This document shows, in pieces, positions 9,047-33,036 of a DNA stretch of 52,837 nucleotides. The notes under the pieces were generated by a model. It saw only the letters and a program-made list of their open reading frames with translations, did not search any database and was not told the origin of the DNA. Location of the stretch: the IMG/VR virus record IMGVR_UViG_3300044213_000047, positions 1-52,837 of that record; one strand, 5' to 3'. How positions within the stretch are numbered: position 1 is the stretch's first letter; every line of letters starts with the position of its first letter. A program made the translations under genes and the position numbers. Source of the DNA: a virus. Taxonomy: Duplodnaviria > Caudoviricetes.

Positions 9047-9290
9047 CTTTCAAAATTGGATCATCAGGATGTTGTTCCTTCATATCCTTTAAGAATGAAA
9101 CTAGTTTATCAAGAACTGTGAACCCAACAACTTGTGGGATTATAGCATGGATCAGCATGGCGATTGACCATACGAACAATGATACAGAAAATTTAATTGC
9201 CCAGAACATGTGTTTAAAGTAGAACCATCTGCTACTTGACAGTCTAGAATACTTCTGGGCTTTTTCTAAATGGTCTTTATATAATTTCAT
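9015..9290 (-). CDS. small membrane-associated hypothetical protein
   Basis: YFKHM...LIHAIIP pattern. Confidence 0.55.
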   Translation of the reverse strand: MKLYKDHLEKAQKYSRLSSSRWFYFKHMFWAIKFSVSLFVWSIAMLIHAIIPQVVGFTVLDKLVSFLKDMKEQHPDDPILKDVHFDNERNT

Positions 9291-14980: not shown

Positions 14981-15759
14981 TAATCTTTCTGCGTAGTAAT
15001 ATCCTCTAAGACAGCATCCCAGAACTCAATTCTAGCGTCAATCGCCTCAAGTGCTGCCTGTTCTGCTTCGTGGATTTTTACTGGATCATGTTCACATAAA
15101 GTCTCAACCAAATAGATTGAAGCTGGTCCATGTTCGTCACCATCTAATTCAATGTGTCTTTGTAGATAGTAATGAAATTTTGGACAATCATGGTTAACCA
15201 AGTTTAACGTATTAGCTATATTTGTGAACATAGTTGGAATAGATGTCTCTCGTCCAAAACAAAACGCTGCAGCAACCACATGTGGTTTACCTGTTTCGAT
15301 AAACTTAAATGTTTTTTCCATAAACCTTCTACTTGGATATGGAACACTGGCATTTTCAAGAGCATAACGAAACCCATTATTCGTTACAGTTTGAATGAAA
15401 CTCTCAAATTCTCTGCCATCCGCCCCAATTTCCAACATTGCTTGAGCGTATAGATCATGGTGTGAAATTGTACCAATACCATCAATATCAATATCACTTT
15501 CTTCTCCAGTCACAATATCATTAATCGTCCTTGCTAATCCCGAACGAATCCATTTATTTGGAACCCAACAAGTTGTACTTGGGCAGATTTCATGCTGAAG
15601 GGTTTTTAACAGCGACATGAAATCCCAGACAGCATAAACATGTCTTTCCATAAACATCTGAAGTGAAGTTATGTCACAGAGAATCTTATCATTGTTTAAA
15701 AGTGGATGATTATACAAAACCCTTCTTCTTTCTTCAATTTTCCTTAATGGTAATTTCAT
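14965..15759 (-). CDS. DUF3050 heme-oxygenase-like diiron protein
   Basis: HVYAVWDFMSLLK, EESD, FGRE, YYLQRHIELDGDEHGP. Confidence 0.85.
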   Translation of the reverse strand: MKLPLRKIEERRRVLYNHPLLNNDKILCDITSLQMFMERHVYAVWDFMSLLKTLQHEICPSTTCWVPNKWIRSGLARTINDIVTGEESDIDIDGIGTISHHDLYAQAMLEIGADGREFESFIQTVTNNGFRYALENASVPYPSRRFMEKTFKFIETGKPHVVAAAFCFGRETSIPTMFTNIANTLNLVNHDCPKFHYYLQRHIELDGDEHGPASIYLVETLCEHDPVKIHEAEQAALEAIDARIEFWDAVLEDITTQKDYWRHE

Positions 15760-15772
15760 ATAATCCTTATTT

Positions 15773-15846
15773 TGGAGCGGATAGGGGAAATCGAATCCCA
15801 CTCTGCGCAGCTTGGAAGGCTGGCGACGCACCTCACGCTTACCCGC
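15773..15846 (-). tRNA. tRNA-Gly(TCC)
   Basis: Loop CTTCCAA, CCA end. Confidence 0.85.
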
Positions 15847-15859
15847 ATATTTGAACGAA

Positions 15860-15935
15860 TGGCTACCGTGGAGAGATTCGAACTCCCAGCCTTGTGTTTT
15901 GGAGACACCTGCGCTGCCAATTGCGCCACACGGTA
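15860..15935 (-). tRNA. tRNA-Trp(CCA)
   Basis: Loop CTCCAAA, full cloverleaf. Confidence 0.9.
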
Positions 15936-15966
15936 ATAATTTTATTATTTTTCACTGAGATATATT

Positions 15967-16040
15967 TGGTGCCCATTTACGGATTTGAACTCCCACCAAG
16001 GGTTTTGGAGACCCGTATGCTGCCATTACACTATCGAGAT
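15967..16040 (-). pseudogene. chimeric tRNA-Trp(CCA) pseudogene
   Basis: D and anticodon arms intact; T stem and acceptor stem do not pair. Confidence 0.65.
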
Positions 16041-16096
16041 ATTATTTCATTCAATACCCAACGCTTCAGCCAGTTGCAAACTTCTACAAAGGCAAA

Positions 16097-16306
16097 TTAT
16101 GCATAAGAGTCTTGAGGTACTGGACCAATGCTATCTGCTAATTGACCTTCAGCGTCATAAACCTTAATATGCTTACCCTGTTGGTTATGTAGGTTACGAC
16201 CGAATTCTAGTGCTTTTTCGAGCGAAGAAAGGAAGAAGTGAGTAACTTTCAACTCACCATTTTCCCAGAAGTGCATTGTTACTTTATGAGATTTAGGTAA
16301 TGACAT
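16097..16306 (-). CDS. hypothetical protein
   Basis: AGGAG SD, coupled to upstream gene. Confidence 0.6.
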   Translation of the reverse strand: MSLPKSHKVTMHFWENGELKVTHFFLSSLEKALEFGRNLHNQQGKHIKVYDAEGQLADSIGPVPQDSYA

Positions 16307-17359
16307 TTAATTCTCCTTGAATTGTTTAAACCAAATTCGTTTGGTCTTGTTTGTATAGTTCTTTAACGACAACTGATTTGTCTTCACATTCAGCTGAGGG
16401 AATCTATATGCAAACCTCAATCCCTCGATAATATCTTGTCCGTTGGTTGGGTCTCTAAGACCTAGTGTTTGCCATGGTATCTCTTTGCTACCAATGAGCG
16501 GAACACCCTGACTGATTACATCAGCACCAACGATGTTAAATGTTTCTGAGAAGTTACACTGTAACGCCAGATCCATTTGCCCACATAACTCCAAGAATTG
16601 TTCTCTTGGTGTCCATGTATGATTGATAAGAGTATGACCCTTATCGTGAAAATGCTGGAACAAACCTTTCAAGTTGCTAACGGCAGGTTGTCCCTGCATT
16701 TCAATTCGACCAGCATTAACGTGGAATCTGAGTTTCTTACCGATGTTGTCGGCAAACTCTACAGCTGCCAATGCTTGTACTAGGTGATTCTTCAGAGGTC
16801 TAACAGCACCGAAACACCCAATATCTATATTGTCCTTGTCTTTTTCGAGTTTCTTGCTCTTATACTCTTGCGGGTAATAGTTGGGTAAGTAGATAACCTT
16901 TTCGTTGGCTGTCTTGTCATCCCAATCGTTAAGATGTTGAAGAAAGAACTTCATTTCCCTTAACATGCGAGGAGCATTAACGCCAATGATTATATTCTTA
17001 AACTTTGAATACTCGCCGATCCAATCCATAGCCATACCTTCACCAGCCATAAATGGCATCTCTGAATGAAGACGAATAATCCACTTCACATTCGGGTGAA
17101 GTTTCTGTAGGATTAAAAACTTTTGAGGAACAACCCATAATGCTTCAACAATGACATGGGTTGGTTTGAAATTAGTAACTTCTCTGTCAATAGCATTGTT
17201 ATCTGGAACGACAACTAACTTTGATTCGATACCCATATCGTTGAGCATAACATACATGAAGTTTGCTGAGTTATACAGACCTGTGCTTAGACCGATGTGG
17301 TTATCACGATCAATGTTATAATCTTCTTTTCGTTTTAATATAAACAGTACACGAGACAT
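16307..17359 (-). CDS. GT-B fold glycosyltransferase
   Basis: GAVRPLKN and SETFNIVGADVISQGVP (E-x7-E/D-like). Confidence 0.7.
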   Translation of the reverse strand: MSRVLFILKRKEDYNIDRDNHIGLSTGLYNSANFMYVMLNDMGIESKLVVVPDNNAIDREVTNFKPTHVIVEALWVVPQKFLILQKLHPNVKWIIRLHSEMPFMAGEGMAMDWIGEYSKFKNIIIGVNAPRMLREMKFFLQHLNDWDDKTANEKVIYLPNYYPQEYKSKKLEKDKDNIDIGCFGAVRPLKNHLVQALAAVEFADNIGKKLRFHVNAGRIEMQGQPAVSNLKGLFQHFHDKGHTLINHTWTPREQFLELCGQMDLALQCNFSETFNIVGADVISQGVPLIGSKEIPWQTLGLRDPTNGQDIIEGLRFAYRFPQLNVKTNQLSLKNYTNKTKRIWFKQFKEN

Positions 17360-17395
17360 GTCGAATCAAAAAATGGTAAAGGAATTGTTATCTTG

Positions 17396-17403
17396 TATTT
17401 ATA
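17396..17403 (-). promoter_or_regulatory. T4-type late promoter
   Basis: TATAAATA upstream of glycosyltransferase. Confidence 0.65.
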
Positions 17404-17428
17404 ACACCCCTGTATTTCCATTTTATTT

Positions 17429-17504
17429 TGGTGCCCACAACATGATTCGAACACGTGACCTACTGATTACTAATCAGTTGCTCTACCAACTGAGCTATGT
17501 GGGC
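17429..17504 (-). tRNA. tRNA-Thr(AGT)
   Basis: ACTGA-TTAGTAA-TCAGT anticodon arm. Confidence 0.85.
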
Positions 17505-17510
17505 GATAAC

Positions 17511-17774
17511 TTAATTTTCTAAAACTGCGACGATATCTTCTTGTTTAATAATAACACGTTGAGCATCACCAACTTTAACAACTTGTGCTTTATTCCACAT
17601 CAAATATACTACGTCGCCTACTTTAACATCAGTAACTTCTGGTCCGATTGCTAATACTGTTCCAGATTTTGATTCACCAGTTCCCTGAGAATCAAGAATA
17701 ATACCAGAAGATGTTGTTTCTTCACGTTTATTTTCAGCAATCAAAACTTTGTCATGCAAGGGTTGAATGTTCAT
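17511..17774 (-). CDS. groES: co-chaperonin GroES
   Basis: IQPLHDKVLI, TSSGIIL, GTVLAIGP, VKVGD. Confidence 0.9.
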   Translation of the reverse strand: MNIQPLHDKVLIAENKREETTSSGIILDSQGTGESKSGTVLAIGPEVTDVKVGDVVYLMWNKAQVVKVGDAQRVIIKQEDIVAVLEN

Positions 17775-17799
17775 ATTATCTTTCACTGTGTTAAAAAAT

Positions 17800-17874
17800 T
17801 GGTGGTGAAGGTTGGATTCGAGCCAACGACCTTTTCCGTATGAAGGAACTGCACTACCGCTGTGCTACATCACC
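17800..17874 (-). tRNA. tRNA(CAT), elongator Met or Ile2
   Basis: Loop TTCATAC. Confidence 0.8.
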
Positions 17875-18076
17875 ATTGTTGAAAGTACTGTCATCTGTTT
17901 AAGGAAATATAGTCTTGAATATAGCGTTCAAGCATTCATTCCCCTCTACCTTGGCAGATCTGCTCTTCGGTCCTCGTACCACCACAGTACATCGAGGGAC
18001 TCGGTAAAGGTCGGTATCACCCTGACAGTCAGGCTGCTGGTTAGGCAACTTCGCTCTCAGACTTTCAACAATGGTG
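17871..18076 (-). ncRNA. unidentified ~200-nt structured RNA
   Basis: 16-bp perfect terminal inverted repeat CACCATTGTTGAAAGT; internal hairpins; no credible ORF. Confidence 0.55.
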
Positions 18077-18157
18077 CGTCTGGTCAGACTCGAACTGACA
18101 CGCTTTTAGGGCACGAGCTTCTAAGACTCGCATGGCTACCAATTACATCACAGACGC
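18072..18157 (-). tRNA. tRNA-Leu(TAG)
   Basis: Loop CTTAGAA, long variable arm. Confidence 0.9.
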
Positions 18158-18300
18158 ATGGTGTATAATTTTACAACTCTCACATCGTAAAACCTAACGA
18201 CTCCACCTGCCGAATTACCGTAACGTGGCATTAACACGAACTTCATTGACGGAAGTTAATCGGATAGATGCTTTTTGCTCATGCCTATCATACGAGGAGA

Positions 18301-18375
18301 TGGTAGCGGGAGGTGGTAACGCTCCACCCTCGACATGGCTTATGAGACCATTCGGGTCGACTTGACCTTCCCGCA
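18301..18375 (-). tRNA. tRNA-Met(CAT), initiator-like
   Basis: Loop CTCATAA, 1:72 mismatch, atypical T loop. Confidence 0.7.
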
Positions 18376-18380
18376 ACAGC

Positions 18381-18746
18381 TTATTGTTTAGACCACTCAG
18401 CAATCACCTTGCGATCTACACTTCTTTGTTCTCTTGTACCATATTTTGCTACCATGGCAACAATTCTTGGCACAATATACAACTGAAACATTCCATCATT
18501 GTTACGTTTCTTCTCAACATAACTGTATGGTTTACCAGCTAGATATGCTCTTGCTAATTCAGTGGCACGAGCTTCATTTCTAACATTCCACTTTCGATGA
18601 TTAGTCAAACTGTTTAATTTCCAGATAAGACTAGAATCAGTTCCTTTTGTATATTTTATCTGACCCTTGAGTTTGTTTTCTTCACGTTTGATGATAGATG
18701 GCTCAAGTGCCAAATGCTTTGCTTTAATTTTTAATTCGATACACAT
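18381..18746 (-). CDS. hypothetical protein
   Basis: LKIKAKHLA...VRNEARATELA...YSYVE; SD AAGGA. Confidence 0.65.
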   Translation of the reverse strand: MCIELKIKAKHLALEPSIIKREENKLKGQIKYTKGTDSSLIWKLNSLTNHRKWNVRNEARATELARAYLAGKPYSYVEKKRNNDGMFQLYIVPRIVAMVAKYGTREQRSVDRKVIAEWSKQ

Positions 18747-18857
18747 TTTAATTTCCTTTGTTGTTAATTTTAGAAACATAATAAAAAACAAAAGAAACCT
18801 TACGGTGGACGAATCTAGGCTGACAATTTCTCCATGTCGCTTCTCCTTATAAAAAGT

Positions 18858-18934
18858 TGGTGCGTTAGACAGGAATCGAACCTGCTTCAGTCTGGTTTAG
18901 AATCAGCTACCCTTACCAAGTGGGCTACTAACGC
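18858..18934 (-). tRNA. tRNA with CTA anticodon (amber-suppressor-like)
   Basis: Loop TTCTAAA; perfect acceptor and T stems; anticodon stem has two mismatches. Confidence 0.6.
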
Positions 18935-18948
18935 ATTTTATATATATC

Positions 18949-19023
18949 TGGCTCCAGAGGGTGGGATCGAACCACCGACCAATTGATTAACAGTCAACTG
19001 CACTACCGCTGTGCTACTCTGGA
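18949..19023 (-). tRNA. tRNA-Asn(GTT)
   Basis: Loop CTGTTAA. Confidence 0.9.
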
Positions 19024-19030
19024 ATAAAAC

Positions 19031-19105
19031 TGGCGACTCGTAGGAGAATCGAACTCCTGTGTCCTGCTAGACAGGCAGGCATAATAACCATTATATTAAC
19101 GAGCC
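19031..19105 (-). tRNA. tRNA-Asp(GTC)
   Basis: Loop CTGTCTA. Confidence 0.9.
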
Positions 19106-19111
19106 AAATTT

Positions 19112-19202
19112 TGGTGGACAACAATGGGAATCTAACCCACTTCTTCCTCGTATGCTATTACGAAGTTTCAGACCAGCATCAGGTCATCACAACAGTAAGT
19201 CC
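19112..19202 (-). ncRNA. aberrant tRNA-like RNA
   Basis: GGAC/GTCC-ACCA end and T-like arm, but no canonical 7-nt anticodon loop. Confidence 0.5.
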
Positions 19203-19212
19203 AAAATGTTTA

Positions 19213-19431
19213 TCAGTCAACCAAAAAACTAGAGTATTTTGGTTTGGTTATTTCTACCCATGCTTCAACACCTGGGTCGACCTCTTCAAACTGGTTTCCA
19301 TATGTAAACTCAAAACAACAATTTGCTGCTTGCCTGAAATTCTCGAAAACATACTTTTCGCCAGTTTTAGAATCCAACACCAATACATCATCAACACGGA
19401 GTTTGAATCTCTCAAAATGTTCATCAATCAT
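19213..19431 (-). CDS. hypothetical protein within tRNA array
   Basis: AGGAG SD before MIDEHF. Confidence 0.6.
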   Translation of the reverse strand: MIDEHFERFKLRVDDVLVLDSKTGEKYVFENFRQAANCCFEFTYGNQFEEVDPGVEAWVEITKPKYSSFLVD

Positions 19432-19476
19432 GATTGATCTCCTTGTTGCTATGTGTCTGATTATAAGTCCAAAATA

Positions 19477-19569
19477 TGGTGGAGCAACTTGGAGTCGAAC
19501 CAAGAATGTTTACCACGAGGGGACGGATTTACAGTCCGCCGATGCACACGCCATAGCATCAATTGCTCC
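19477..19569 (-). tRNA. tRNA-Tyr(GTA)
   Basis: Loop CTGTAAA, long variable arm. Confidence 0.85.
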
Positions 19570-19577
19570 GAAACTTT

Positions 19578-19776
19578 CCATTTGTTAGTGTTACTACGTT
19601 ATAGACAGCCTTCACCGTACTGCCGTTTGTTTTTAACGACCAAACTTATTTCCCAAGCGTCCAAGGGATCTTTGTTTGATAACAACTGTATACGTAGTCT
19701 ACTCGAGTTAACCACACATTGACAGATTCACTATCCTGCGATCACAGGAATTTTCCATAATAACACTAACAAATGG
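19578..19776 (-). ncRNA. unidentified ~200-nt structured RNA
   Basis: 16-bp perfect terminal inverted repeat CCATTTGTTAGTGTTA; several internal hairpins. Confidence 0.55.
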
Positions 19777-19848
19777 TACTGCGTACGAGAGTCGAACTCG
19801 TCTTCTCAGGTTGAAAACCTGATGTCCTAACCGATAGACGAACGCAGT
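19774..19848 (-). tRNA. tRNA-Glu(TTC)
   Basis: Loop TTTTCAA. Confidence 0.9.
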
Positions 19849-19866
19849 ATTAACTAACTAAACTCA

Positions 19867-19895
19867 ATTATACTTGATATTTAAATAAATGTCAA
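19867..19895 (-). promoter_or_regulatory. internal sigma70 promoter in tRNA array
   Basis: TTGACA-17-TATAAT. Confidence 0.85.
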
Positions 19896-19907
19896 GCATT
19901 ATTTTTT

Positions 19908-19981
19908 TGGAGTAGGTGACAAGAATCGAACTTGCTTCCATGGGTTTGCAATCCAGTGCCCATCCAACTGGCTCCACCTAC
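19908..19981 (-). tRNA. tRNA-Cys(GCA)
   Basis: Loop TTGCAAA, U73. Confidence 0.9.
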
Positions 19982-19987
19982 ATAACT

Positions 19988-20065
19988 TGGTACCTCTGCT
20001 GAGATTCGAACTCAGAGAACTTCTCCTTTTGAGAGAGACGACTTTACCAATTTGTCCACAGAGGC
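19988..20065 (-). tRNA. tRNA-Leu(CAA), short variable arm
   Basis: Loop CTCAAAA. Confidence 0.85.
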
Positions 20066-20070
20066 ATACT

Positions 20071-20146
20071 TGGCCTCGCCTGAAGGAATCGAACCCTCAT
20101 TCGTAGGGTAGAAACCTACTGTATTATCCATTATACTAAAGCGAGA
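20071..20146 (-). tRNA. tRNA-Arg(TCT)
   Basis: Loop TTTCTAC. Confidence 0.85.
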
Positions 20147-20150
20147 TAAT

Positions 20151-20227
20151 TGGTGCGGAAGGCGAGACTCGAACTCGCAGAACTCAGATTTTAAGTCTGA
20201 TATGTATACCAATTCCATCACATCCGC
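20151..20227 (-). tRNA. tRNA-Leu(TAA), short variable arm
   Basis: Loop CTTAAAA. Confidence 0.85.
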
Positions 20228-20233
20228 AAAATT

Positions 20234-20328
20234 TGGTACTCCCGACAGGATTCGAACCTGTATCATCCCCTAATCTGGAGGCATTGCCGAGGTATAAGCT
20301 CGGAGTTTTACCATTAAACTACAGGAGT
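20234..20328 (-). tRNA. tRNA with TAT anticodon (Ile) and long variable arm
   Basis: CCGAG-CTTATAC-CTCGG plus ~24-nt extra arm. Confidence 0.75.
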
Positions 20329-20398
20329 ATGGCTCCGTCATATTTTTTATTTTAACAGGGCGAGAACGGAAGCACCCCTGATTAGCTGCAGCGCAACT

Positions 20399-20488
20399 TG
20401 GTGGAGAGTGTGGGAGTCGAACCCACTGACCGTATTCCTACGATCTACAGTTTAGCAAACTGCTGCATTACCATCCTGCCCACTCTCC
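20399..20488 (-). tRNA. tRNA-Ser(GCT)
   Basis: Loop TTGCTAA, long arm. Confidence 0.9.
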
Positions 20489-21055
20489 TTAATAGTTACC
20501 ATTCTTGAAACCCACAGTACCACCCTGCTCCTGAATCCTTTTTAGAACTTCTTCAAAAAGGATGGGTCTGAACTCAGTTTGCTCTACGCACACAGAGAAG
20601 TACCGTGGATCAATTATCTCACCCATTTTCTTATCATCATACATAACTCTGTTGCTATGTAAGTGACCATGAATGTTGCAACCGAATCGTCTTAGTTGAT
20701 CAGGATGAACAGGGATGTGAGAAAGAATTAAACCATTCATAACATGGTAAGCACGAATGTCTCTAAAGTATTTGGTATAATCCTCTAACTTAAAGATATC
20801 GTGGTTACCTTTGATTAAAACCTTATCACCATTCAGACGATGCATAATGTGTAACGATTTTCTGTTAATCACAACATCACCTAAGTGGTAAACCTTATCG
20901 TTGGGTTTAACTGTTTCGTTCCACAGTTTAACCATTGCTTCATCCATTTCTTCAACAGAATCCCAAGGACGAAGTTTCGTACCATCCGCACGCAAGAACT
21001 TAGTCACACCAGCGTGACCAAAGTGCGTATCGCTTACTAAGAATACACTCGGCAT
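20489..21055 (-). CDS. calcineurin-like metallophosphoesterase
   Basis: SDTHFGH, HLGD, GNHD, HGHLH. Confidence 0.9.
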   Translation of the reverse strand: MPSVFLVSDTHFGHAGVTKFLRADGTKLRPWDSVEEMDEAMVKLWNETVKPNDKVYHLGDVVINRKSLHIMHRLNGDKVLIKGNHDIFKLEDYTKYFRDIRAYHVMNGLILSHIPVHPDQLRRFGCNIHGHLHSNRVMYDDKKMGEIIDPRYFSVCVEQTEFRPILFEEVLKRIQEQGGTVGFKNGNY

Positions 21056-21077
21056 AACTTTTCCTTTCATAAAAAAA

Positions 21078-21169
21078 TGGAGGAGACGGTGGGATTCGAA
21101 CCCACGGAGCTATCTCTAACCCGACAGTTTTCAAGACTGTTGCCATAAACCAGACTCGACCACGTCTCC
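21078..21169 (-). tRNA. tRNA-Ser(TGA)
   Basis: Loop CTTGAAA, long arm. Confidence 0.9.
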
Positions 21170-21175
21170 ATAACT

Positions 21176-21250
21176 TGGCACCCAATGAGAGAATCAAACT
21201 CCCAACCCAGCGTTCGTAGCACTGTGTGATATTCATTTCACCAATCGGGT
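21176..21250 (-). tRNA. tRNA-Arg(ACG)
   Basis: Loop CTACGAA. Confidence 0.85.
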
Positions 21251-21256
21251 ATAACT

Positions 21257-21331
21257 TGGTACCTTGTGACAGATTCGAACTGCCGACATCCCACTTGTAA
21301 GGAGGGAGCTCTACCACTGAGCTAACAAGGC
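21257..21331 (-). tRNA. tRNA-Val(TAC)
   Basis: Loop CTTACAA. Confidence 0.9.
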
Positions 21332-21333
21332 AT

Positions 21334-21409
21334 TGGAGCGGGAGACGAGGTTCGAACTCGCGACATCTTGCTTGGCAAGCAAGCTCTCTACCAACTGAGA
21401 TACTCCCGC
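21334..21409 (-). tRNA. tRNA-Gly(GCC)
   Basis: Loop TTGCCAA. Confidence 0.9.
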
Positions 21410-21418
21410 ATAAAAATT

Positions 21419-21493
21419 TGGTGGACCGTAAGAGAATCGAACTCTTACCTCTGACGTGCAAAGCCAGCGTGCTCCCATTATCACTAACAGCCC
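21419..21493 (-). tRNA. tRNA-Ala(TGC)
   Basis: Loop TTTGCAC, G3:U70. Confidence 0.9.
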
Positions 21494-21498
21494 AAAAC

Positions 21499-21572
21499 TG
21501 GTCTCGGTGGAAAGAATCGAACTTTCGACACATGGTCCCAAACCACGAATTTTACCACTAAACTACACCGAG
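21499..21572 (-). tRNA. tRNA-Pro(TGG)
   Basis: Loop TTTGGGA. Confidence 0.9.
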
Positions 21573-21578
21573 AAAAAC

Positions 21579-21652
21579 TGGTGCCCCACGACAGAATCGA
21601 ACTGCCGTATTCGGATTACAAAACCGACGTAATACCATTATACGAGTAGGGC
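21579..21652 (-). tRNA. tRNA-Thr(TGT)
   Basis: Loop TTTGTAA. Confidence 0.9.
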
Positions 21653-21659
21653 GAAAACT

Positions 21660-21734
21660 TGGTCCCTTAGGTAAGAATTGAACTTACTACCAATGCCTTA
21701 TCAAGACACTGCTCTACCAATGAGCTACTAAGGG
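21660..21734 (-). tRNA. tRNA-Ile(GAT)
   Basis: Loop TTGATAA. Confidence 0.9.
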
Positions 21735-21742
21735 ATAATATT

Positions 21743-21818
21743 TGGTGCAACCTGCAGGAATCGAACCTGCTTCATCGGATTTTCAATCCGCTGCTATGAC
21801 CACATCAGCTAAGGTTAC
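21743..21818 (-). tRNA. tRNA-Phe(GAA)
   Basis: Loop TTGAAAA. Confidence 0.9.
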
Positions 21819-21820
21819 AT

Positions 21821-21896
21821 TGGGGTGAACTATGAGGATCGAACTCATACTATCTCGGTCACAGCGAGATGTGCAGACCACTACACTAAGAACACC
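21821..21896 (-). tRNA. tRNA-His(GTG)
   Basis: Loop CTGTGAC, G-1:C73. Confidence 0.9.
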
Positions 21897-21904
21897 ATCG
21901 AAAC

Positions 21905-21980
21905 TGGTACGGGTAGAGAGACTCGAACTCTCAACTTCCTGGTTAAAAGCCAGATACTCTACCAATTGAGTTATACCCGC
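21905..21980 (-). tRNA. tRNA-Lys(TTT)
   Basis: Loop CTTTTAA. Confidence 0.9.
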
Positions 21981-21984
21981 ATTA

Positions 21985-22207
21985 CCAAACAAAATCACAC
22001 TGGGATGATCAGCAGTAACCATCACCCGATGGCTAACCACGTATTCGTCATACGACTGACCGCATCTCACATTACGATCTAGATTACTCCAGCGTCCTCC
22101 TGATATTATCTCAAGGTTTCTTGATATCATGGCGCACCCATCTCCGTCGAGACAGCTAATGCCCATGTACCCTACTGGATCTAGCAACCCAATGCAATTT
22201 TGTTTGG
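21985..22207 (-). ncRNA. unidentified ~220-nt structured RNA
   Basis: 11-bp terminal inverted repeat CCAAACAAAAT plus further imperfect pairing; GC-rich hairpins. Confidence 0.55.
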
Positions 22208-22281
22208 CACCCCCTGATGGATTCGAACCACCGCATGACGGAATCAAAATCCGTTGCCTTACCAGCTTGGCGAAGAGGGTA
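22205..22281 (-). tRNA. tRNA-Gln(TTG)
   Basis: Loop TTTTGAT. Confidence 0.9.
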
Positions 22282-22337
22282 CAGAGTCCTAATTGTTAAA
22301 GATCGTTTGGTTGACAATTCAATCAACCAGAACTTGA

Positions 22338-22366
22338 AGTATACGCTTAATTAGCATTTACGTCAA
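22338..22366 (-). promoter_or_regulatory. sigma70 promoter directly ahead of first tRNA
   Basis: TTGACG-17-TATACT. Confidence 0.7.
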
Positions 22367-22402
22367 GCTCTTTTTTAATAACCATACAAACTGTAAGGTC
22401 AT

Positions 22403-22437
22403 AAAACAAAAAACCCCAAGACTTTCATCTTGGGGTT
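22403..22437 (-). terminator. intrinsic terminator (candidate attenuator)
   Basis: AACCCCAAGA-TGAAAG-TCTTGGGGTT-TTTTGTTTT. Confidence 0.85.
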
Positions 22438-22481
22438 CTGTAAAATATACTTGTTGTTTTCAGTCTACTTTACAGAACCCC
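22432..22481 (-). promoter_or_regulatory. antiterminator hairpin overlapping the terminator 5' arm
   Basis: GGGGTTCTGTAAA (22481-22469) pairs perfectly with TTTACAGAACCCC (22444-22432). Confidence 0.75.
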
Positions 22482-22578
22482 CAGTGTAATCAATCGCTGT
22501 AAACTCTGGGCGTGAGCATGTCCAGCCACTATTAAGTGGTAAATGCTTCTGCATTCTGGATATGTTCGTCAAGTTCAT
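22465..22578 (-). CDS. 37-aa leader peptide containing all 20 amino acids
   Basis: MNLTNISRMQKHLPLNSGWTCSRPEFTAIDYTGGSVK-TAG; ATG 7 nt after -10 box. Confidence 0.7.
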   Translation of the reverse strand: MNLTNISRMQKHLPLNSGWTCSRPEFTAIDYTGGSVK

Positions 22579-22585
22579 AGTAGAA

Positions 22586-22614
22586 ATTATACTTCCGTTT
22601 TGATTAAATGTCAA
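22586..22614 (-). promoter_or_regulatory. sigma70 promoter of leader peptide
   Basis: TTGACA-17-TATAAT. Confidence 0.85.
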
Positions 22615-22674
22615 GTAGTTTATTAAATAACCCTACAATTTGTAAGGTTACTCCCTATCAATGTATTTAGTCAT

Positions 22675-22703
22675 ATTATACACGCAAAATGACTAAATGT
22701 CAA
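22675..22703 (-). promoter_or_regulatory. tandem upstream sigma70 promoter, followed by CTAAATA late-like box
   Basis: TTGACA-17-TATAAT; late box at 22664-22670. Confidence 0.8.
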
Positions 22704-22720
22704 ATTATTTTCAATTATTT

Positions 22721-23023
22721 TTATGCTGCGAAGGAAGATCCGCAACCACAAGTTGCAGTTGCGTTTGGATTGGAAACTTTGAAAGAAGCACCCATCAACT
22801 CTTCAACGTAGTCAACAGTGGCACCTTGTAGATATTGCATACTCATAGCATCAACAAGAACAGAACCGAGTTCAAAATCATCTTCTTCTTTGTCACCAAA
22901 GTTAAATGCATAAGAAAACCCTGAACAACCACCACCCTGAACCGAGATTCTCAAGTGCGTTTCTTGGTTTTCCAATAACAAATCGGAAATTTTATTTTGT
23001 GCGCTTTCTGTTACTGTTATCAT
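22721..23023 (-). CDS. A-type Fe-S carrier (IscA/ErpA, HesB family)
   Basis: GGGCSGFSY, CGCGSSF. Confidence 0.92.
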   Translation of the reverse strand: MITVTESAQNKISDLLLENQETHLRISVQGGGCSGFSYAFNFGDKEEDDFELGSVLVDAMSMQYLQGATVDYVEELMGASFKVSNPNATATCGCGSSFAA

Positions 23024-23571
23024 TTTTCTTTTCTTTGCGATGATACGTTTGTAGATGAAACATTAGTTGCAACACAAATCCTAGTTTCGGTAGATCTGTT
23101 AATTTCAACCATATGTAAAAGATATGCTGGGAATAGAACAATTTTACCTGATACTGGTTTTATCCGTTTGTGTTTAACACCAATGACATTATTTTCAACT
23201 GCAATATCCCAATTATGACTACCTCTTGGATCTACCAACAGTAAATCTCCACAATTATCTGGAGCATTAACATAATAAACGCAAGCTAAAACAGTAACAC
23301 CATGATCATGTATTGGTAACGACTCCATGGGTTTTTGCCTATTTATCCACCCACGCATAATAACTGGTTCAATACCAACACATTCTTTAACTGTAGAAAA
23401 AATAAGATCTTTTAGAGAAGAAATTCTTGGAGAAGAATAATTCCAAAGATTAAACGAAGAACCATCAGAACTTTTACAATTATTAAGTTCTGAGAGTAAT
23501 GCACTGTTGTTAAAATCTGTTTGTATCTCCCAAACTGGAGTAACCCAGAATTCGTGTTTAACTGCGTTCAT
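23020..23571 (-). CDS. putative 2OG-Fe(II) oxygenase (TIGR02466-like)
   Basis: WIN, HDH, DPRG, FPAYLLHMV, RICVATN. Confidence 0.8.
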   Translation of the reverse strand: MNAVKHEFWVTPVWEIQTDFNNSALLSELNNCKSSDGSSFNLWNYSSPRISSLKDLIFSTVKECVGIEPVIMRGWINRQKPMESLPIHDHGVTVLACVYYVNAPDNCGDLLLVDPRGSHNWDIAVENNVIGVKHKRIKPVSGKIVLFPAYLLHMVEINRSTETRICVATNVSSTNVSSQRKEK

Positions 23572-24001
23572 TCGTTTTCTCTACTTCAATACCACATTTC
23601 TCAAGAAACTCAATTCCGCTGGTGTCGCGATATGAATTTCTGTAATACACTTTATGTATTCCTGATCCGTAAATCATCTTGGCGCATTGAACACAAGGAG
23701 CATGAGTGCAGAATAAACTAGCGTGTAAACCAGACTCACCATCACGAGCGAGTTTACCAATGGCATTCGCTTCTGCATGAATAACCTCATCCTTCGTTTT
23801 CGTGACTGTACCACCGTCCTCATGCACTTCAATAATTTCTTCACAGCAATTATCCCAACCAGCTGGAGTTCCATTGTATCCAATAGAGATAATTCGATTG
23901 TCTTTTACAACAACTGAACCAACCTTTAAACGAACAGCAGAAGACAGCTGAGCAAATCTCTCAGCTGTATCCATAAACGCATCAATCCACTTCTGTTTCA
24001 T
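23558..24001 (-). CDS. cd: dCMP deaminase
   Basis: GYNG, HAEANAI, PCVQC. Confidence 0.92.
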   Translation of the reverse strand: MKQKWIDAFMDTAERFAQLSSAVRLKVGSVVVKDNRIISIGYNGTPAGWDNCCEEIIEVHEDGGTVTKTKDEVIHAEANAIGKLARDGESGLHASLFCTHAPCVQCAKMIYGSGIHKVYYRNSYRDTSGIEFLEKCGIEVEKTNERS

Positions 24002-31032: not shown

Positions 31033-33036
31033 TTACTTCGATGTGGCTCTATATGTTCCATCCCAGTCAGCTGGTTTGCCTTCTTGCATACGTTCAACCA
31101 TGTTATCATAGTATTGCGATAGTTCTGGAGATTCAGCTTTCAGAGAATCAACCATTGCAATAGCAGCATCCCAATTTCCAGAGTAATAGTTTTCTAACCA
31201 AATAGGATGTAACGAATAAACTATTGCAGGTGTAAAAATTTTCACTCCAATCTTTTTACCTTTTACCGCAATACAATCAAGTTCTGCTACAGGATACTGA
31301 TCTTGAACATATCGTGCAGTTTGTTGTCCAAGAATGATTCGGACGCCATACGATTTACTCTGTCCTTCAAGTCTGGATGCAAGATTGACAGAATCCCCAA
31401 GACAAGTATAATCGAAACGCTGGTCGCTACCCATATTCCCAACAACAACGGTACCAGTATTAATCCCAAGACCCATGCCGAAAGGTGGCACACCCTCTTT
31501 AGTAATTTCTGAATTAAATTCATCCAAACTCTCCATCATTTGTAAAGCTGTTTTCAAAGCCATCTTAGCGTGTTCAGGTTCATCGAGTGGAGCATTCCAA
31601 AATGCCATCTGAGCATCACCGATATACTTATCTAACGTGCCATTGTTTTCTATAATTTTTGATGTCATCGCTGTCATGTAGCGATTCATAATTTGAGTTA
31701 AACCTTGAACATCTTCCCCATAGTGTTCTGATATTGAAGTAAACCCTCTAACATCTGTGAACATAATGGAAAGTTCTCTTGACTCACCACCGAGTTTAAG
31801 TAATTCAGGTTGTCGCTGTAACTTTTCGACCAGAGCGGGAGACAAGTAAGTACCGAACTGTTTTTTGATTTGAAGTTTTTGGCGCAGTTCAACAAGGAAT
31901 TTGACAATGTATCCATGGAAGCTGCAGATTCCAATGGTAAGTATCGGGAACACAGCATCAAGTAGATACTGGTGTCGTACAAACAATTCCATACCACCAT
32001 AATAGGCAACGAATCCCAATAAGATCGCGAAGATGTATCCATGAGTAAACCTCGTTAGGTAAAGTGAAAGTAACACTGCTACAATCATAAATCCTAACTC
32101 AGCGATTAAAGACCAATCTGGTCTACTGATGTTAGTGCCACTAATTACTGTGTCTAGAACCTCAGCTTGTATATAATGAGGAAATTGGGCACCTCCTGCT
32201 GTGGCGACAGGATTGTTAAGACCTTTTGCGGTAAGACCGACGATGACGATTTTTCCACCGAAGTCTTTTGGTAAATTGATGGCAGAATATTCTGCTGGTC
32301 TGCTAGTAGGGTCAACCCAAATTCTCCCGAGTTCATCGGTTTCGATTTTTCCAAGTTGAGCAATTCTGACTGCTTGGATTGCGTTGTCGTTGACTTTAAC
32401 TTGGAAACTTGGTTGTCCTGCGGCAACTCTGAGAGTTTCAAGGCTGATGCTGGGGTATAAGTTTCCATTTGCGTTGACGACCATTGGTATTCTTCTGGTG
32501 ACGCCATCGACTTCTGGCAGAGTGTTAACAACACCAATACCAGCAGCACTATTATTGAATATGGTTGGATATATCGTATCATACTTCACACCTGTATCTT
32601 TCGCATTTCCTCCGATTACTGAAACACCTGGACGGAATGGAATTACATCGGTAGTAACTTTACCTACTTCTGCTAGTTGCGGTAAAATTACTGGATTATT
32701 TTTTAATGTAGCAGCCAGCTGGCTGTCTTGATGAAACCTATCGGAATCAGGCATATAAACATTAAACACAACAAGACCAGCGTTACGTTTAAGAATATCT
32801 TCAATAATCTTTGAGTAGTCTCCTCTAGGGAACGGAAACTGTCCTTTTTGCTTAATAGTGGCATCGTCTATATTTACAACTGCCACATGTTCTGAGACAG
32901 TTGCTTCCTTTGATGTTATTAGTTGATCGAAATAACGAAGTCTGACAGACTCAACGAATGTCGGGTCTGCCAGTCGAATTACAATCATAAGCACCAATGT
33001 AACCAGTGCCATCCATGGCGATAAAAGTTTTTTCAT
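31033..33036 (-). CDS. CHASE2-domain class III adenylate cyclase
   Basis: FTDVRGFT, DKYIGDA, DYTCLGDSVNLASRLE; N-terminal CHASE2 (DGVTRRIP) plus TM helices. Confidence 0.92.
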   Translation of the reverse strand: MKKLLSPWMALVTLVLMIVIRLADPTFVESVRLRYFDQLITSKEATVSEHVAVVNIDDATIKQKGQFPFPRGDYSKIIEDILKRNAGLVVFNVYMPDSDRFHQDSQLAATLKNNPVILPQLAEVGKVTTDVIPFRPGVSVIGGNAKDTGVKYDTIYPTIFNNSAAGIGVVNTLPEVDGVTRRIPMVVNANGNLYPSISLETLRVAAGQPSFQVKVNDNAIQAVRIAQLGKIETDELGRIWVDPTSRPAEYSAINLPKDFGGKIVIVGLTAKGLNNPVATAGGAQFPHYIQAEVLDTVISGTNISRPDWSLIAELGFMIVAVLLSLYLTRFTHGYIFAILLGFVAYYGGMELFVRHQYLLDAVFPILTIGICSFHGYIVKFLVELRQKLQIKKQFGTYLSPALVEKLQRQPELLKLGGESRELSIMFTDVRGFTSISEHYGEDVQGLTQIMNRYMTAMTSKIIENNGTLDKYIGDAQMAFWNAPLDEPEHAKMALKTALQMMESLDEFNSEITKEGVPPFGMGLGINTGTVVVGNMGSDQRFDYTCLGDSVNLASRLEGQSKSYGVRIILGQQTARYVQDQYPVAELDCIAVKGKKIGVKIFTPAIVYSLHPIWLENYYSGNWDAAIAMVDSLKAESPELSQYYDNMVERMQEGKPADWDGTYRATSK

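What the first reader, a model, noticed from the sequence alone, without database searches (positions are those of the whole stretch)
22403..22614. All-20-amino-acid leader peptide coupled to a terminator/antiterminator at the head of a complete tRNA array: candidate universal tRNA-depletion sensor
Seen: a perfect TTGACA-17-TATAAT promoter is followed 7 nt later by ATG with no SD, so the transcript is likely leaderless. The ORF is MNLTNISRMQKHLPLNSGWTCSRPEFTAIDYTGGSVK*. All 20 amino acids occur, even within the 28 residues M9-V36, and 32 of 37 codons are distinct. Split codon boxes are sampled separately: Leu TTG/TTA/CTT, Arg AGA/CGC, Ser TCN/AGT, Ile ATA/ATT, Thr ACG/ACA/ACT, Gly GGC/GGG/GGT. 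This mirrors the isoacceptors downstream. The last codons (GGGGTTCTGTAAA) pair 13/13 with a segment that includes the 5' arm of a strong intrinsic terminator. Established: in trp/his attenuation a stalled ribosome frees the antiterminator, while a ribosome reaching the stop allows termination. Inference: shortage of any charged tRNA (starvation, or host anticodon nucleases such as PrrC, VapC or PARIS AriB) stalls the ribosome early and switches on the phage's full tRNA set. Classical attenuators sense one or a few amino acids; I know of no described pan-codon attenuator on a phage tRNA operon. Caveat: promoters at 22338 and 19867 lie downstream and could give basal expression.
Basis: partly seen in the sequence, partly recalled or inferred. 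Interest (0 to 1): 0.95.

Follow-up and report, generated by a model that had tools for sequence, protein, structure and literature searches.

The report
All-amino-acid leader peptide before phage tRNAs
A group of freshwater phages places a tiny gene that uses every one of the 20 amino acids, joined to an RNA on/off switch, in front of their block of tRNA genes, which looks like a gauge of the cell's overall protein-making capacity that sets how many phage tRNAs are made.

Summary
On the minus strand a 12/12 promoter (22614-22586) lies 7 nt before a 37-codon ORF (22578-22465). The ORF's last codons pair with the 5' arm of a terminator (22439-22410) at the head of a 27-tRNA array.

One 20-of-20 peptide alone is not remarkable (p about 0.003). 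The comparative data are.

- **Linkage.** Found from the leader side, the neighbour-gene side or the tRNA side, every related array examined carries such an ORF at its head.
- **Translation.** Its frame is conserved: indels are in threes and the other frames are closed. The peptide sequence is loosely constrained (dN/dS about 0.65).
- **Completeness.** 62 of 81 distinct peptides keep all 20 amino acids and the rest keep 19. Single-copy Cys, His, Gln and Tyr relocate rather than disappear. One locus has an unrelated 41-aa peptide that is also 20/20.
- **Switch.** Antiterminator and terminator are nearly iso-energetic. In 14 of 39 spacer types no promoter separates the terminator from the first tRNA.

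Best reading (about 0.6): a leaderless, ribosome-mediated attenuator. Finished translation terminates; slowed translation reads through.

Caveats: Asp sits where a stall cannot act, the isoacceptor "mirror" is only weakly supported, the window has a downstream promoter, and there are no expression data.

The parts
22675..22703 (-). Upstream promoter P1 (TTGACA-17-TATAAT, 12/12). Its transcripts would carry the leader ORF behind an untranslated stretch without a Shine-Dalgarno sequence.
   Evidence: conserved in relatives in the alignment
22627..22651 (-). Hairpin 1 (ACCTTACA-N3-TGTAGGGT motif), about 12 nt upstream of the -35 of P2
   Evidence: motif found twice on this strand; 0 of 100 shuffles with as many matches
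22586..22614 (-). Promoter P2 of the leader (12/12). The -10 ends 7 nt before the ATG, so the mRNA is predicted to be leaderless.
   Evidence: 34 of 42 family members score 10/12 or better; 31 of 42 have the -10 ending 6-7 nt before the ATG
22465..22578 (-). Leader ORF, 37 codons plus TAG, containing all 20 amino acids
22526..22539 (-). Hairpin H2 inside the ORF (CCACU/AGUGG). Kept by compensatory changes in relatives. Role unknown; possibly a pause or synchronisation hairpin.
   Evidence: pair types AU28/GC7/GU6 and CG29/UA6/UG5
22432..22481 (-). Antiterminator hairpin A. Its 5' arm is the last six codons plus the stop codon. Its 3' arm overlaps the terminator's 5' arm by 8 nt (22439-22432).
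22401..22439 (-). Intrinsic terminator T (stem 22439-22410, then the U-run)
   Evidence: 20 distinct stem variants in relatives, all fully paired
22378..22402 (-). Hairpin 2, a second copy of the motif, directly after the terminator and upstream of P3
   Evidence: hairpins in the same place in relatives, often with a CAUCGU loop
22338..22366 (-). Secondary promoter P3 (TTGACG-17-TATACT, 10/12) between the terminator and tRNA-Gln. It could give attenuator-independent tRNA expression.
15860..22280 (-). tRNA array. ARAGORN finds 26 tRNAs and Rfam adds tRNA-Cys(GCA) at 19911-19981. All 20 specificities are present, plus a CTA-anticodon tRNA. tRNA-Gln(UUG) comes first.

Best explanation
This is a ribosome-mediated transcription attenuator at the head of the phage tRNA array, built around a leaderless ORF that holds every amino acid.

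Proposed sequence of events:

1. RNA polymerase starts at P2 and the transcript begins at or next to the AUG.
2. A 70S ribosome translates the 37-46-codon ORF.
3. The last six codons and the stop codon form the 5' arm of a long hairpin (A). Its 3' arm contains the first 7-9 nt of the terminator stem.
4. If the ribosome reaches the stop codon in time, it covers that 5' arm. The terminator then forms and transcription ends before the tRNAs.
5. If the ribosome is slowed or blocked anywhere in roughly the first 30 codons, or never starts, hairpin A forms first. It holds the terminator's 5' arm and polymerase reads through into the tRNA genes.

Because the ORF holds about one codon for each amino acid, its transit time depends on nearly every aminoacyl-tRNA family. 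The element would therefore act as a gauge of overall decoding capacity. That would give demand-driven, negative-feedback expression of the phage's full tRNA set.

Shown: the anatomy, its conservation, the frame conservation, the maintained amino-acid completeness, and the competing iso-energetic helices.

Inferred: leaderless translation, ribosome masking, the direction of control and the physiological trigger.
For: **Linkage to tRNA arrays**
- Of 80 loci found through the neighbouring IscA-like gene, the 9 that carry tRNAs are the 9 that carry the element.
- Of 61 loci found with a DNA pattern, 57 have the ORF. Every one of those with enough downstream DNA has a same-strand array starting 107-596 nt after the stop, with no tRNA upstream.
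- Of 39 arrays found from the tRNA side with a pre-tRNA-Gln motif, all 39 have a leader. Nine of them had not matched the leader pattern, and one is cut by its contig end.

**Translated frame**
- 17 of 19 distinct gap runs inside the ORF are multiples of 3. The other two are one 21-nt gap split in two.
- After the stop only 5 of 24 gap runs are multiples of 3.
- Frames +1 and +2 are closed in 44 and 45 of 45 sequences.

**The peptide sequence itself is not the selected trait**
- Codon-position differences are 0.30, 0.26 and 0.33. Median dN/dS is 0.65.
- L193 has a peptide with no detectable similarity to the family (hhalign probability 1.5%) in the same slot. It is also leaderless, 41 aa, 20/20, and has its own A/T pair of different sequence.

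**Completeness is maintained**
- 31 of 41 DNA-derived peptides are 20/20 and 10 have 19 types.
- Of 40 further distinct peptides from an independent protein search, 31 are 20/20 and 9 have 19.
- A divergent subfamily is 20/20 in 8 of 8 loci.
- A column shuffle gives a mean of 4.1 complete peptides of 41, maximum 12, with 0 of 5000 shuffles reaching 31. A tree simulation with a complete root gives a mean of 6.6, maximum 25, with 0 of 1000 reaching 31.
- Where the main column lacks a residue, it reappears elsewhere: Cys 30 of 39, His 29 of 29, Gln 50 of 50, Tyr 45 of 45. Where the main column has it, a second copy is rare: 1 of 42, 3 of 52, 5 of 31, 0 of 36.

**Switch**
- Hairpin A is 98% paired with covariation, and 0 of 500 shuffles match it.
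- A arms of different sequence still pair in L187, L193 and the GGUAAG/UUUACC subfamily.
- There are 20 distinct terminator stems, all fully paired. The minimum-energy state is A in 23 sequences and T in 22 of 45.
- In all cases examined the stop codon lies in A's 5' arm.

**Dependence of the tRNAs on read-through**
- 14 of 39 distinct terminator-to-tRNA spacers are 60 nt or less (13 of them 49-53 nt). None has a promoter of 10/12 or better.

**Leaderless design**
- The -10 ends 6-7 nt before the ATG in 31 of 42 members and 10 nt before it in 8.
Against: - **Asp placement.** Asp occurs only 2-3 codons before or at the G-run of A's 5' arm in 41 of 41 peptides (76 of 80 in the union set), and Tyr in 15 of 41. 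A ribosome stalled there already covers the part of A that competes with the terminator, so such a stall should not cause read-through. The upstream zone holds only 17-19 residue types.
- **Downstream promoters.** In the window and in 23 of 25 long spacers, a promoter of 9/12 or better lies between the terminator and tRNA-Gln. The attenuator is therefore not the sole control there.
- **Upstream promoter.** P1 is also 12/12. Its transcripts would carry the ORF without a ribosome-binding site and would be expected to read through regardless.
- **No anti-antiterminator.** The candidate 1:2 helix has no covariation support.
- **Partial overlap.** The terminator's apical half is not sequestered by A. 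It could nucleate and displace A by branch migration, and T is the minimum-energy state in 22 of 45 sequences.
- **Timing.** No RNA polymerase pause site that would let the ribosome catch up has been shown.
- **Isoacceptor matching is weak**.
- **Ascertainment.** Many A-helix columns were fixed by my own search pattern and cannot count as evidence.
- **Nothing measured.** There is no transcript, 3'-end or ribosome-occupancy data, and the host is unknown.
Confidence: 0.6

Rival explanations
1. This is a self-contained small gene. The promoter, ORF and terminator make a stable mRNA for a 37-46-aa protein that acts in trans, for example on translation or tRNA metabolism. Hairpin A is then just part of a compound 3' end.
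For: - The unit has its own consensus promoter and a strong terminator.
- In 23 of 25 long spacers another promoter follows, so the tRNAs need not depend on it.
- P14, W19 and R23 are invariant in the 20-sequence alignment.
- Gene callers predict it as a protein, and 53 database entries are all labelled 'hypothetical'.
Against: - There is no excess variation at third codon positions and dN/dS is about 0.65.
- Residues relocate instead of being conserved in place.
- L193 carries an unrelated peptide in the same slot.
- The conserved C-terminus GGFGK is explained by the RNA, because it copies the terminator's 3' arm.
- No known reason would make a micro-protein need exactly one of each residue.
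- The element always sits at the array head, and in 14 spacer types with no intervening promoter.
Confidence: 0.1
2. This is an attenuator of the same anatomy whose signal is not aminoacyl-tRNA supply. It could instead be translation initiation on leaderless mRNA, or general ribosome availability or inhibition, for example host shut-off or ribosome-targeting toxins. The all-20 composition would be secondary.
For: - With no supported 1:2 helix, any failure to initiate gives hairpin A and read-through.
- The leaderless start is conserved.
- A and T are iso-energetic.
- Asp cannot be sensed by stalling.
Against: - It does not explain why completeness is kept through relocation.
- It does not explain why an unrelated peptide in L193 is also 20/20.
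- It does not explain why both codon boxes of Leu and Ser (45 of 45 each), Arg (40 of 45) and ATA plus ATY for Ile (43 of 45) are kept.
Confidence: 0.15
3. This is a non-coding structured RNA, either a small RNA or a processing or stability element for the tRNA precursor. The ORF would be incidental.
For: - The fold is very stable (z -5.9).
- Hairpins H2 and A are kept by covariation.
- Conservation is at the nucleotide level and equal across codon positions.
- Conserved hairpins and an A/U-rich motif follow the terminator, before the tRNA.
Against: - The ORF is open in all 45 distinct sequences, while the other frames are closed in 44 and 45 of 45.
- Indels inside it are multiples of three, and those outside it are not.
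- The ATG is kept at 6-7 nt from the -10.
- The stop codon always lies in A's 5' arm.
- No Rfam family matches the region at E up to 1.
Confidence: 0.05

Closest known systems
Leader-peptide attenuators of amino-acid operons in enterobacteria (trpL, hisL, thrL, ilvL, leuL, pheL). Recalled knowledge; pheL and his papers seen only in the search listings.
   Same: A short ORF lies ahead of the regulated genes. An intrinsic terminator competes with an antiterminator whose 5' strand lies at the end of the ORF. A ribosome at the stop codon favours termination, and a ribosome stalled upstream favours read-through.
   Different: The known examples carry runs of codons for one to three amino acids. This one carries about one codon for each of the 20. 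The known examples have a Shine-Dalgarno leader and a 1:2 helix that terminates untranslated transcripts. Here the mRNA is predicted to be leaderless and the 1:2 helix is not supported. Their targets are biosynthetic enzymes; the target here is a phage tRNA array.
Ribosome-stalling attenuators that respond to translation inhibitors (leaders of erm, vmlR, bmrCD, and msr/mef). Recalled knowledge; mef/mel, msrD and tylosin papers seen only in the listings.
   Same: Two-hairpin logic in which a ribosome held up on a short ORF lets an antiterminator form. They sense a general disturbance of translation rather than one metabolite.
   Different: Those depend on drug-dependent arrest peptides with specific sequences. 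Here the peptide sequence is loosely constrained and its composition is what is kept. The target here is tRNA supply rather than resistance.
T-box riboswitches (recalled knowledge)
   Same: They couple the aminoacylation state of tRNA to terminator/antiterminator choice.
   Different: A T-box binds one uncharged tRNA directly and needs no ribosome or ORF, and each senses one amino acid. No T-box or other Rfam family matches here.
pyrBI attenuator (recalled knowledge)
   Same: It uses the distance between the transcribing polymerase and the following ribosome on a leader ORF to decide termination.
   Different: There a closely following ribosome prevents the terminator from forming, which is the opposite logic. 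The signal there is UTP-dependent polymerase pausing.

Membership tests
Ribosome-mediated (leader-peptide) transcription attenuator | A short translated ORF in the transcript ahead of the regulated genes | tested here: met
   A 37-46-codon ORF is open in 45 of 45 distinct sequences. In-frame indels account for 17 of 19 gap runs inside it, against 5 of 24 after the stop. The other frames are closed. Translation itself was not measured.
Ribosome-mediated (leader-peptide) transcription attenuator | An intrinsic terminator between the ORF and the regulated genes | tested here: met
   Stem of 13 pairs plus U-run at 22439-22401. There are 20 distinct fully paired variants in relatives.
Ribosome-mediated (leader-peptide) transcription attenuator | A mutually exclusive antiterminator whose 5' strand a terminating ribosome would cover | tested here: met
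   Hairpin A is 98% paired, and 0 of 500 shuffles match it. It overlaps the terminator by 7-9 nt. The minimum-energy state is A in 23 and T in 22 of 45. A arms of other sequence still pair. Columns fixed by my own search pattern are not counted as evidence.
Ribosome-mediated (leader-peptide) transcription attenuator | Regulatory codons: a run or enrichment of codons for the sensed amino acid(s) | tested here: not met
   There is no run. About 8 residue types occur exactly once per peptide, and 62 of 81 peptides hold all 20. This is the feature that makes it a variant.
Ribosome-mediated (leader-peptide) transcription attenuator | An anti-antiterminator (1:2) helix that gives termination without translation (trp type) | tested here: not met
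   The candidate CCCAG/CUGGG helix is 82% paired with no covariation. 432-478 of 500 shuffles are as good.
Ribosome-mediated (leader-peptide) transcription attenuator | Regulated genes depend on read-through (no promoter after the terminator) | tested here: inconclusive
   Met in 14 of 39 distinct spacers (60 nt or less, no promoter of 10/12 or better). Not met in the window (10/12 promoter at 22366-22338) or in 23 of 25 long spacers.
Ribosome-mediated (leader-peptide) transcription attenuator | Read-through changes with ribosome stalling or amino-acid supply | not testable with these tools
   This needs reporter, in-vitro or Term-seq/Ribo-seq data. The RNA runs found cover only tRNA-Gln.
T-box or any described cis-regulatory RNA family (Rfam 15) | A match to the family covariance model | tested here: not met
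   A search of 15000-24000 at E up to 1 found only tRNAs and weak chance hits elsewhere. Nothing matched in 22380-22620.

The most novel reading that the evidence does not exclude
A phage lineage has evolved a 'one of each' leader peptide. It is a leaderless 37-46-codon ORF kept under selection to contain the whole amino-acid alphabet. The time a ribosome takes to cross it reports the cell's overall decoding capacity to a terminator/antiterminator switch. The phage's complete tRNA set would then be made on demand, as host tRNAs become limiting or are destroyed, and shut off again by its own products. This would be the first attenuator that senses aminoacyl-tRNA supply globally rather than for one amino acid, and the first described regulator of a viral tRNA array.
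Probability: 0.5. Interest if true: 0.95.

Novelty: new variant of a known kind. Interest (0 to 1): 0.88.

Why it matters
Why phages carry near-complete tRNA sets, and how they control them, is an open question. Current ideas include codon compensation, replacement of degraded host tRNAs, and escape from tRNA-cleaving defences (abstracts listed). A cis-element that ties tRNA transcription to the speed of translating a peptide with every amino acid would give that question a direct, testable handle. It would show that the phage monitors decoding capacity, and it would predict when the array is switched on.

It would also extend classical attenuation from sensing one amino acid to sensing the whole alphabet. 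The selected trait would be the peptide's composition, not its sequence.

The element is compact (about 230 bp) and uses a consensus sigma-70-type promoter. It can therefore be tested in standard laboratory systems, and could serve as a general reporter of translational stress.

Six full-text searches found no description of such an element.

Tried and rejected
- **GenBank phage search.** A DNA search with the 951-nt region found only tRNA-Gln matches (118 records, none covering the leader).
- **Neighbouring oxygenase gene.** The 2OG-oxygenase neighbour gave no related loci.
- **A trp-like 1:2 helix.** Tested and not supported.
- **Isoacceptor 'mirror'.** Wobble coverage of phage tRNAs was above the synonymous null in all 15 arrays tested, but individually weak (P 0.03-0.43). 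Watson-Crick cognate coverage was not enriched.
- **Stop codon against suppressor tRNA.** No link was found. A TAG stop plus a CTA-tRNA co-occur only in the window among those 15 arrays.
- **Missing residues.** The amino acid missing from a 19-type leader does not match the amino acid missing from its array (19 arrays).
- **RNA evidence.** Two metatranscriptome runs held only small shares of the query words. When laid on the window, their contigs covered only tRNA-Gln (22190-22305) and, in one run, the IscA-like end. This says nothing about expression of the leader.
- **Cellular genomes.** The leader pattern gave 33 hits, 32 of them chance. One real copy lies on a 3.4-kb MAG contig (L175; 19 types, His missing).
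- **Relatives of the unrelated L193 leader.** None were found. The other 8 of the 9 pattern hits were chance.
- **hhalign of L193 against the family.** No similarity.
- **Melnitz phage paper (PMC9004378).** Passages read. That phage has four tRNAs, and the passages read say nothing about a leader.
- **Non-family pattern hits.** Four of the 61 pattern loci (L100, L103, L107, L142) have only a short frame. They were dropped as non-family before all counts.
- **Other rows dropped before counts.** L129 was dropped from the RNA set because its locus ends before the terminator. Ten of the 53 database proteins were dropped, nine as N-terminally truncated gene calls and one for lacking the anchor motif. 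L184 was not evaluated because the script stopped with an error.
- **Supplements.** No supplementary files were consulted.
Full report
**What is in the window**

All features lie on the minus strand.

- A 12/12 sigma-70-type promoter lies at 22614-22586. Seven nucleotides later comes ATG (22578), with no Shine-Dalgarno sequence.
- The ORF reads MNLTNISRMQKHLPLNSGWTCSRPEFTAIDYTGGSVK and stops at TAG (22467-22465).
- It contains all 20 amino acids and 32 distinct codons of 37.
- Its last codons (GGGGUUCUGUAAA) pair perfectly with UUUACAGAACCCC. That stretch overlaps by 8 nt the 5' arm of a 13-pair terminator at 22439-22410, which is followed by a U-run.
- The 185-nt transcript is unusually stable (z -5.9; 0 of 200 shuffles as good).
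- Downstream on the same strand lie 26 tRNAs and a tRNA-Cys(GCA) that only Rfam found. The array therefore covers all 20 specificities.
- No Rfam family matches the leader.
- The record is a fragment of an uncultured virus, estimated 29% complete.
- Its nearest cultured relatives by one large protein are Pelagibacter phage HTVC008M and the Methylophilales Melnitz phages, at 36-38% identity.

**Is one 20-of-20 ORF remarkable?**

Not by itself. The chance is about 0.004 with the phage's amino-acid frequencies and 0.0025 with random codons. Of 2577 pooled ATG-ORFs of 30-50 aa, 22 were complete, and 10 of those were this family.

**Relatives**

Members were collected by four independent routes.

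- **Neighbouring gene.** The IscA-like gene gave 80 loci. Only nine carry tRNAs, and those nine carry the element. One of them (L006) is decayed: it has a GTG start, 19 residue types and no terminator.
- **Leader DNA pattern.** A pattern from the ORF end gave 61 loci, 57 with the ORF.
- **Protein database.** A profile search of 5.8 billion proteins gave 53 unnamed 'hypothetical' proteins. One of these led to a divergent subfamily in nine more loci.
- **tRNA side.** A motif just before tRNA-Gln, which is independent of the leader, gave 39 arrays. Thirty were already known. The nine new ones all have a leader, though one is cut by its contig end.

In every locus with the ORF and enough downstream sequence, a same-strand array starts 107-596 nt after the stop, and no tRNA lies upstream.

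In cellular genomes the leader pattern gave 32 chance hits and one real copy on a 3.4-kb MAG contig.

**The ORF is kept as a reading frame, but not as a protein sequence**

- Inside the ORF, 17 of 19 distinct gap runs are multiples of three. The other two are one 21-nt gap split by the aligner.
- After the stop codon only 5 of 24 gap runs are multiples of three.
- Frames +1 and +2 are closed in 44 and 45 of 45 distinct sequences.
- The three codon positions differ about equally (0.30, 0.26, 0.33), and median dN/dS is 0.65.
- The conserved C-terminus GGFGK is explained at the RNA level. GGGGGUUUUGG copies the terminator's 3' arm GAGGGUUUUUU.
- L193 carries a 41-aa peptide with no detectable similarity to the family. 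It sits in the same place, 7 nt after a TATAAT, and has its own antiterminator/terminator pair of different sequence. Its terminator lies 4 nt from the pre-tRNA motif, and a tRNA follows. That peptide also has all 20 residues.

**Completeness is the maintained trait**

- Of 41 distinct DNA-derived peptides, 31 are 20/20 and 10 have 19 types.
- Of 40 further distinct peptides from the protein search, 31 are 20/20 and 9 have 19. Ten gene calls were set aside first, nine as N-terminally truncated and one for lacking the anchor motif.
- The divergent subfamily is 20/20 in 8 of 8 loci.
- Shuffling alignment columns gives a mean of 4.1 complete peptides of 41, with a maximum of 12 and 0 of 5000 shuffles reaching 31.
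- Site-independent evolution on the tree from a complete root gives a mean of 6.6, with a maximum of 25 and 0 of 1000 runs reaching 31.
- The reason is relocation. When a residue is absent from its usual column it reappears elsewhere; when it is present there, a second copy is rare:

| Residue | Present elsewhere when main column lacks it | Second copy when main column has it |
|---|---|---|
| Cys | 30 of 39 | 1 of 42 |
| His | 29 of 29 | 3 of 52 |
| Gln | 50 of 50 | 5 of 31 |
| Tyr | 45 of 45 | 0 of 36 |

These counts are not phylogenetically independent, but the sign and size of the effect are consistent across subfamilies.

At the codon level the signal is modest.
- Distinct codons average 32.3 against 29.9 expected, and 42 of 44 sequences lie above the null mean.
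- Both codon boxes are used for Leu (45 of 45), Ser (45 of 45) and Arg (40 of 45). ATA plus ATY is used for Ile in 43 of 45.
- Coverage of the phage's own anticodons is only weakly above a synonymous null, and Watson-Crick cognates are not enriched.

**The switch**

- RNAalifold recovers hairpin A: the last six codons plus the stop codon pair with the stretch that ends in the terminator's 5' arm. It also recovers a small hairpin inside the ORF, H2.
- Together these are 98% paired, with 21 double-change cells, and 0 of 500 shuffles match.
- Many A columns were fixed by my own search pattern. The better evidence comes from members found by other routes: the window's C-G pair, the GGUAAG/UUUACC subfamily, and L187 and L193 with different arm sequences that still pair.
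- The terminator has 20 distinct stem variants, all fully paired.
- With the whole 3' region present, A is the minimum-energy state in 23 sequences and the terminator in 22 of 45. The two states are close in energy, as expected for a switch.
- A trp-like 1:2 helix is not supported.

**Dependence of the tRNAs on read-through**

Of 39 distinct terminator-to-tRNA spacers, 14 are 60 nt or less, 13 of them 49-53 nt. None of the 14 contains a promoter of 10/12 or better. Of the 25 longer spacers, 23 contain a promoter of 9/12 or better. This group includes the window's 10/12 site at 22366-22338.

**Mechanism proposed**

The anatomy is shown; the function is inferred.

1. A leaderless mRNA is translated as it is made.
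2. A ribosome at the stop codon would cover about 15 nt upstream, which is the whole 5' arm of A. (Ribosome footprint sizes are recalled knowledge.)
3. The terminator then forms and transcription ends.
4. A ribosome delayed in the first 30 or so codons, or absent altogether, lets A form, and polymerase continues into the tRNAs.
5. With about one codon per amino acid, any limiting aminoacyl-tRNA delays the ribosome. The result would be demand-driven tRNA synthesis with negative feedback.

**Weak points**

- Asp lies only next to or inside the 5' arm in 41 of 41 peptides, and Tyr in 15 of 41. The upstream zone therefore holds 17-19 residue types, not 20.
- Secondary promoters and the upstream 12/12 promoter P1 can bypass the switch.
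- The terminator's apical half is free to nucleate.
- No polymerase pause site has been shown.
- The host is unknown.
- There are no expression data.

**Literature**

Six full-text searches (titles and the starts of abstracts seen) returned no leader peptide or attenuator ahead of a phage tRNA array, and no all-amino-acid leader. Passages of PMC9004378 were read and say nothing on this point. The comparisons with trp/his-type attenuators, drug-sensing leaders, T-boxes and pyrBI rest on recalled knowledge.

**Verdict**

The element is best filed as a new variant of ribosome-mediated attenuation, with high interest.

Noticed in passing
window 18858-18934 (-) and 22465-22467: The array holds a tRNA with a CTA anticodon, which looks like an amber suppressor (ARAGORN labels it 'Pyl'), and the window's leader ends in TAG. 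Reading through that stop would carry the ribosome 21 more codons to a TGA, across hairpin A's 3' arm and the whole terminator. Across the family 7 of 45 stops are TAG. Among the 15 large arrays tested, TAG plus a CTA-tRNA co-occur only in the window.
   Followed up: partly
window 19911-19981 (-): A tRNA-Cys (anticodon GCA, read by eye from the fold) was missed by ARAGORN but found by Rfam at 39.7 bits. With it the array covers all 20 amino acids.
   Followed up: yes
window 22627-22651 and 22378-22402 (-): Two copies of a hairpin motif (CCTTACA-N2-TTGTA-N-GGTTAT) each sit about 12-15 nt upstream of a -35 box. Relatives have a hairpin in the same place after the terminator, often with the loop CAUCGU, followed by a conserved A/U-rich motif just before tRNA-Gln. 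This may be a processing site or a protein-binding site.
   Followed up: partly
window 22675-22703 (-): A second perfect 12/12 promoter lies 89 nt upstream of the leader's promoter and is conserved in relatives. Its transcripts would contain the leader ORF behind a 5' stretch with no ribosome-binding site.
   Followed up: no
L006:4293-4560 (+): This is a decayed copy of the leader. It has a GTG instead of an ATG, 19 residue types (Arg lost) and no terminator. A Shine-Dalgarno-led ORF follows, and the array begins with tRNA-Leu instead of tRNA-Gln.
   Followed up: partly
window 20234-20328 and 19477-19569 (-): ARAGORN calls a 95-nt tRNA-Ile(TAT) and a 93-nt tRNA-Tyr, both unusually long. A weak permuted-tmRNA hit (19.7 bits, E 0.94) overlaps 20252-20426.
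   Followed up: no
window 31033-33036 (-) and 9287-10729 (-): The first is a 667-aa protein similar to the adenylate/guanylate-cyclase-domain proteins annotated in Pelagibacter phage HTVC008M and the Melnitz phages (36-38% identity). The second is a 480-aa protein with a tRNA-methyltransferase domain at its C-terminus.
   Followed up: partly
window 22498: One contig of a DNA run (X3) carries a 3-nt deletion inside the leader ORF. This is a natural in-frame variant.
   Followed up: no
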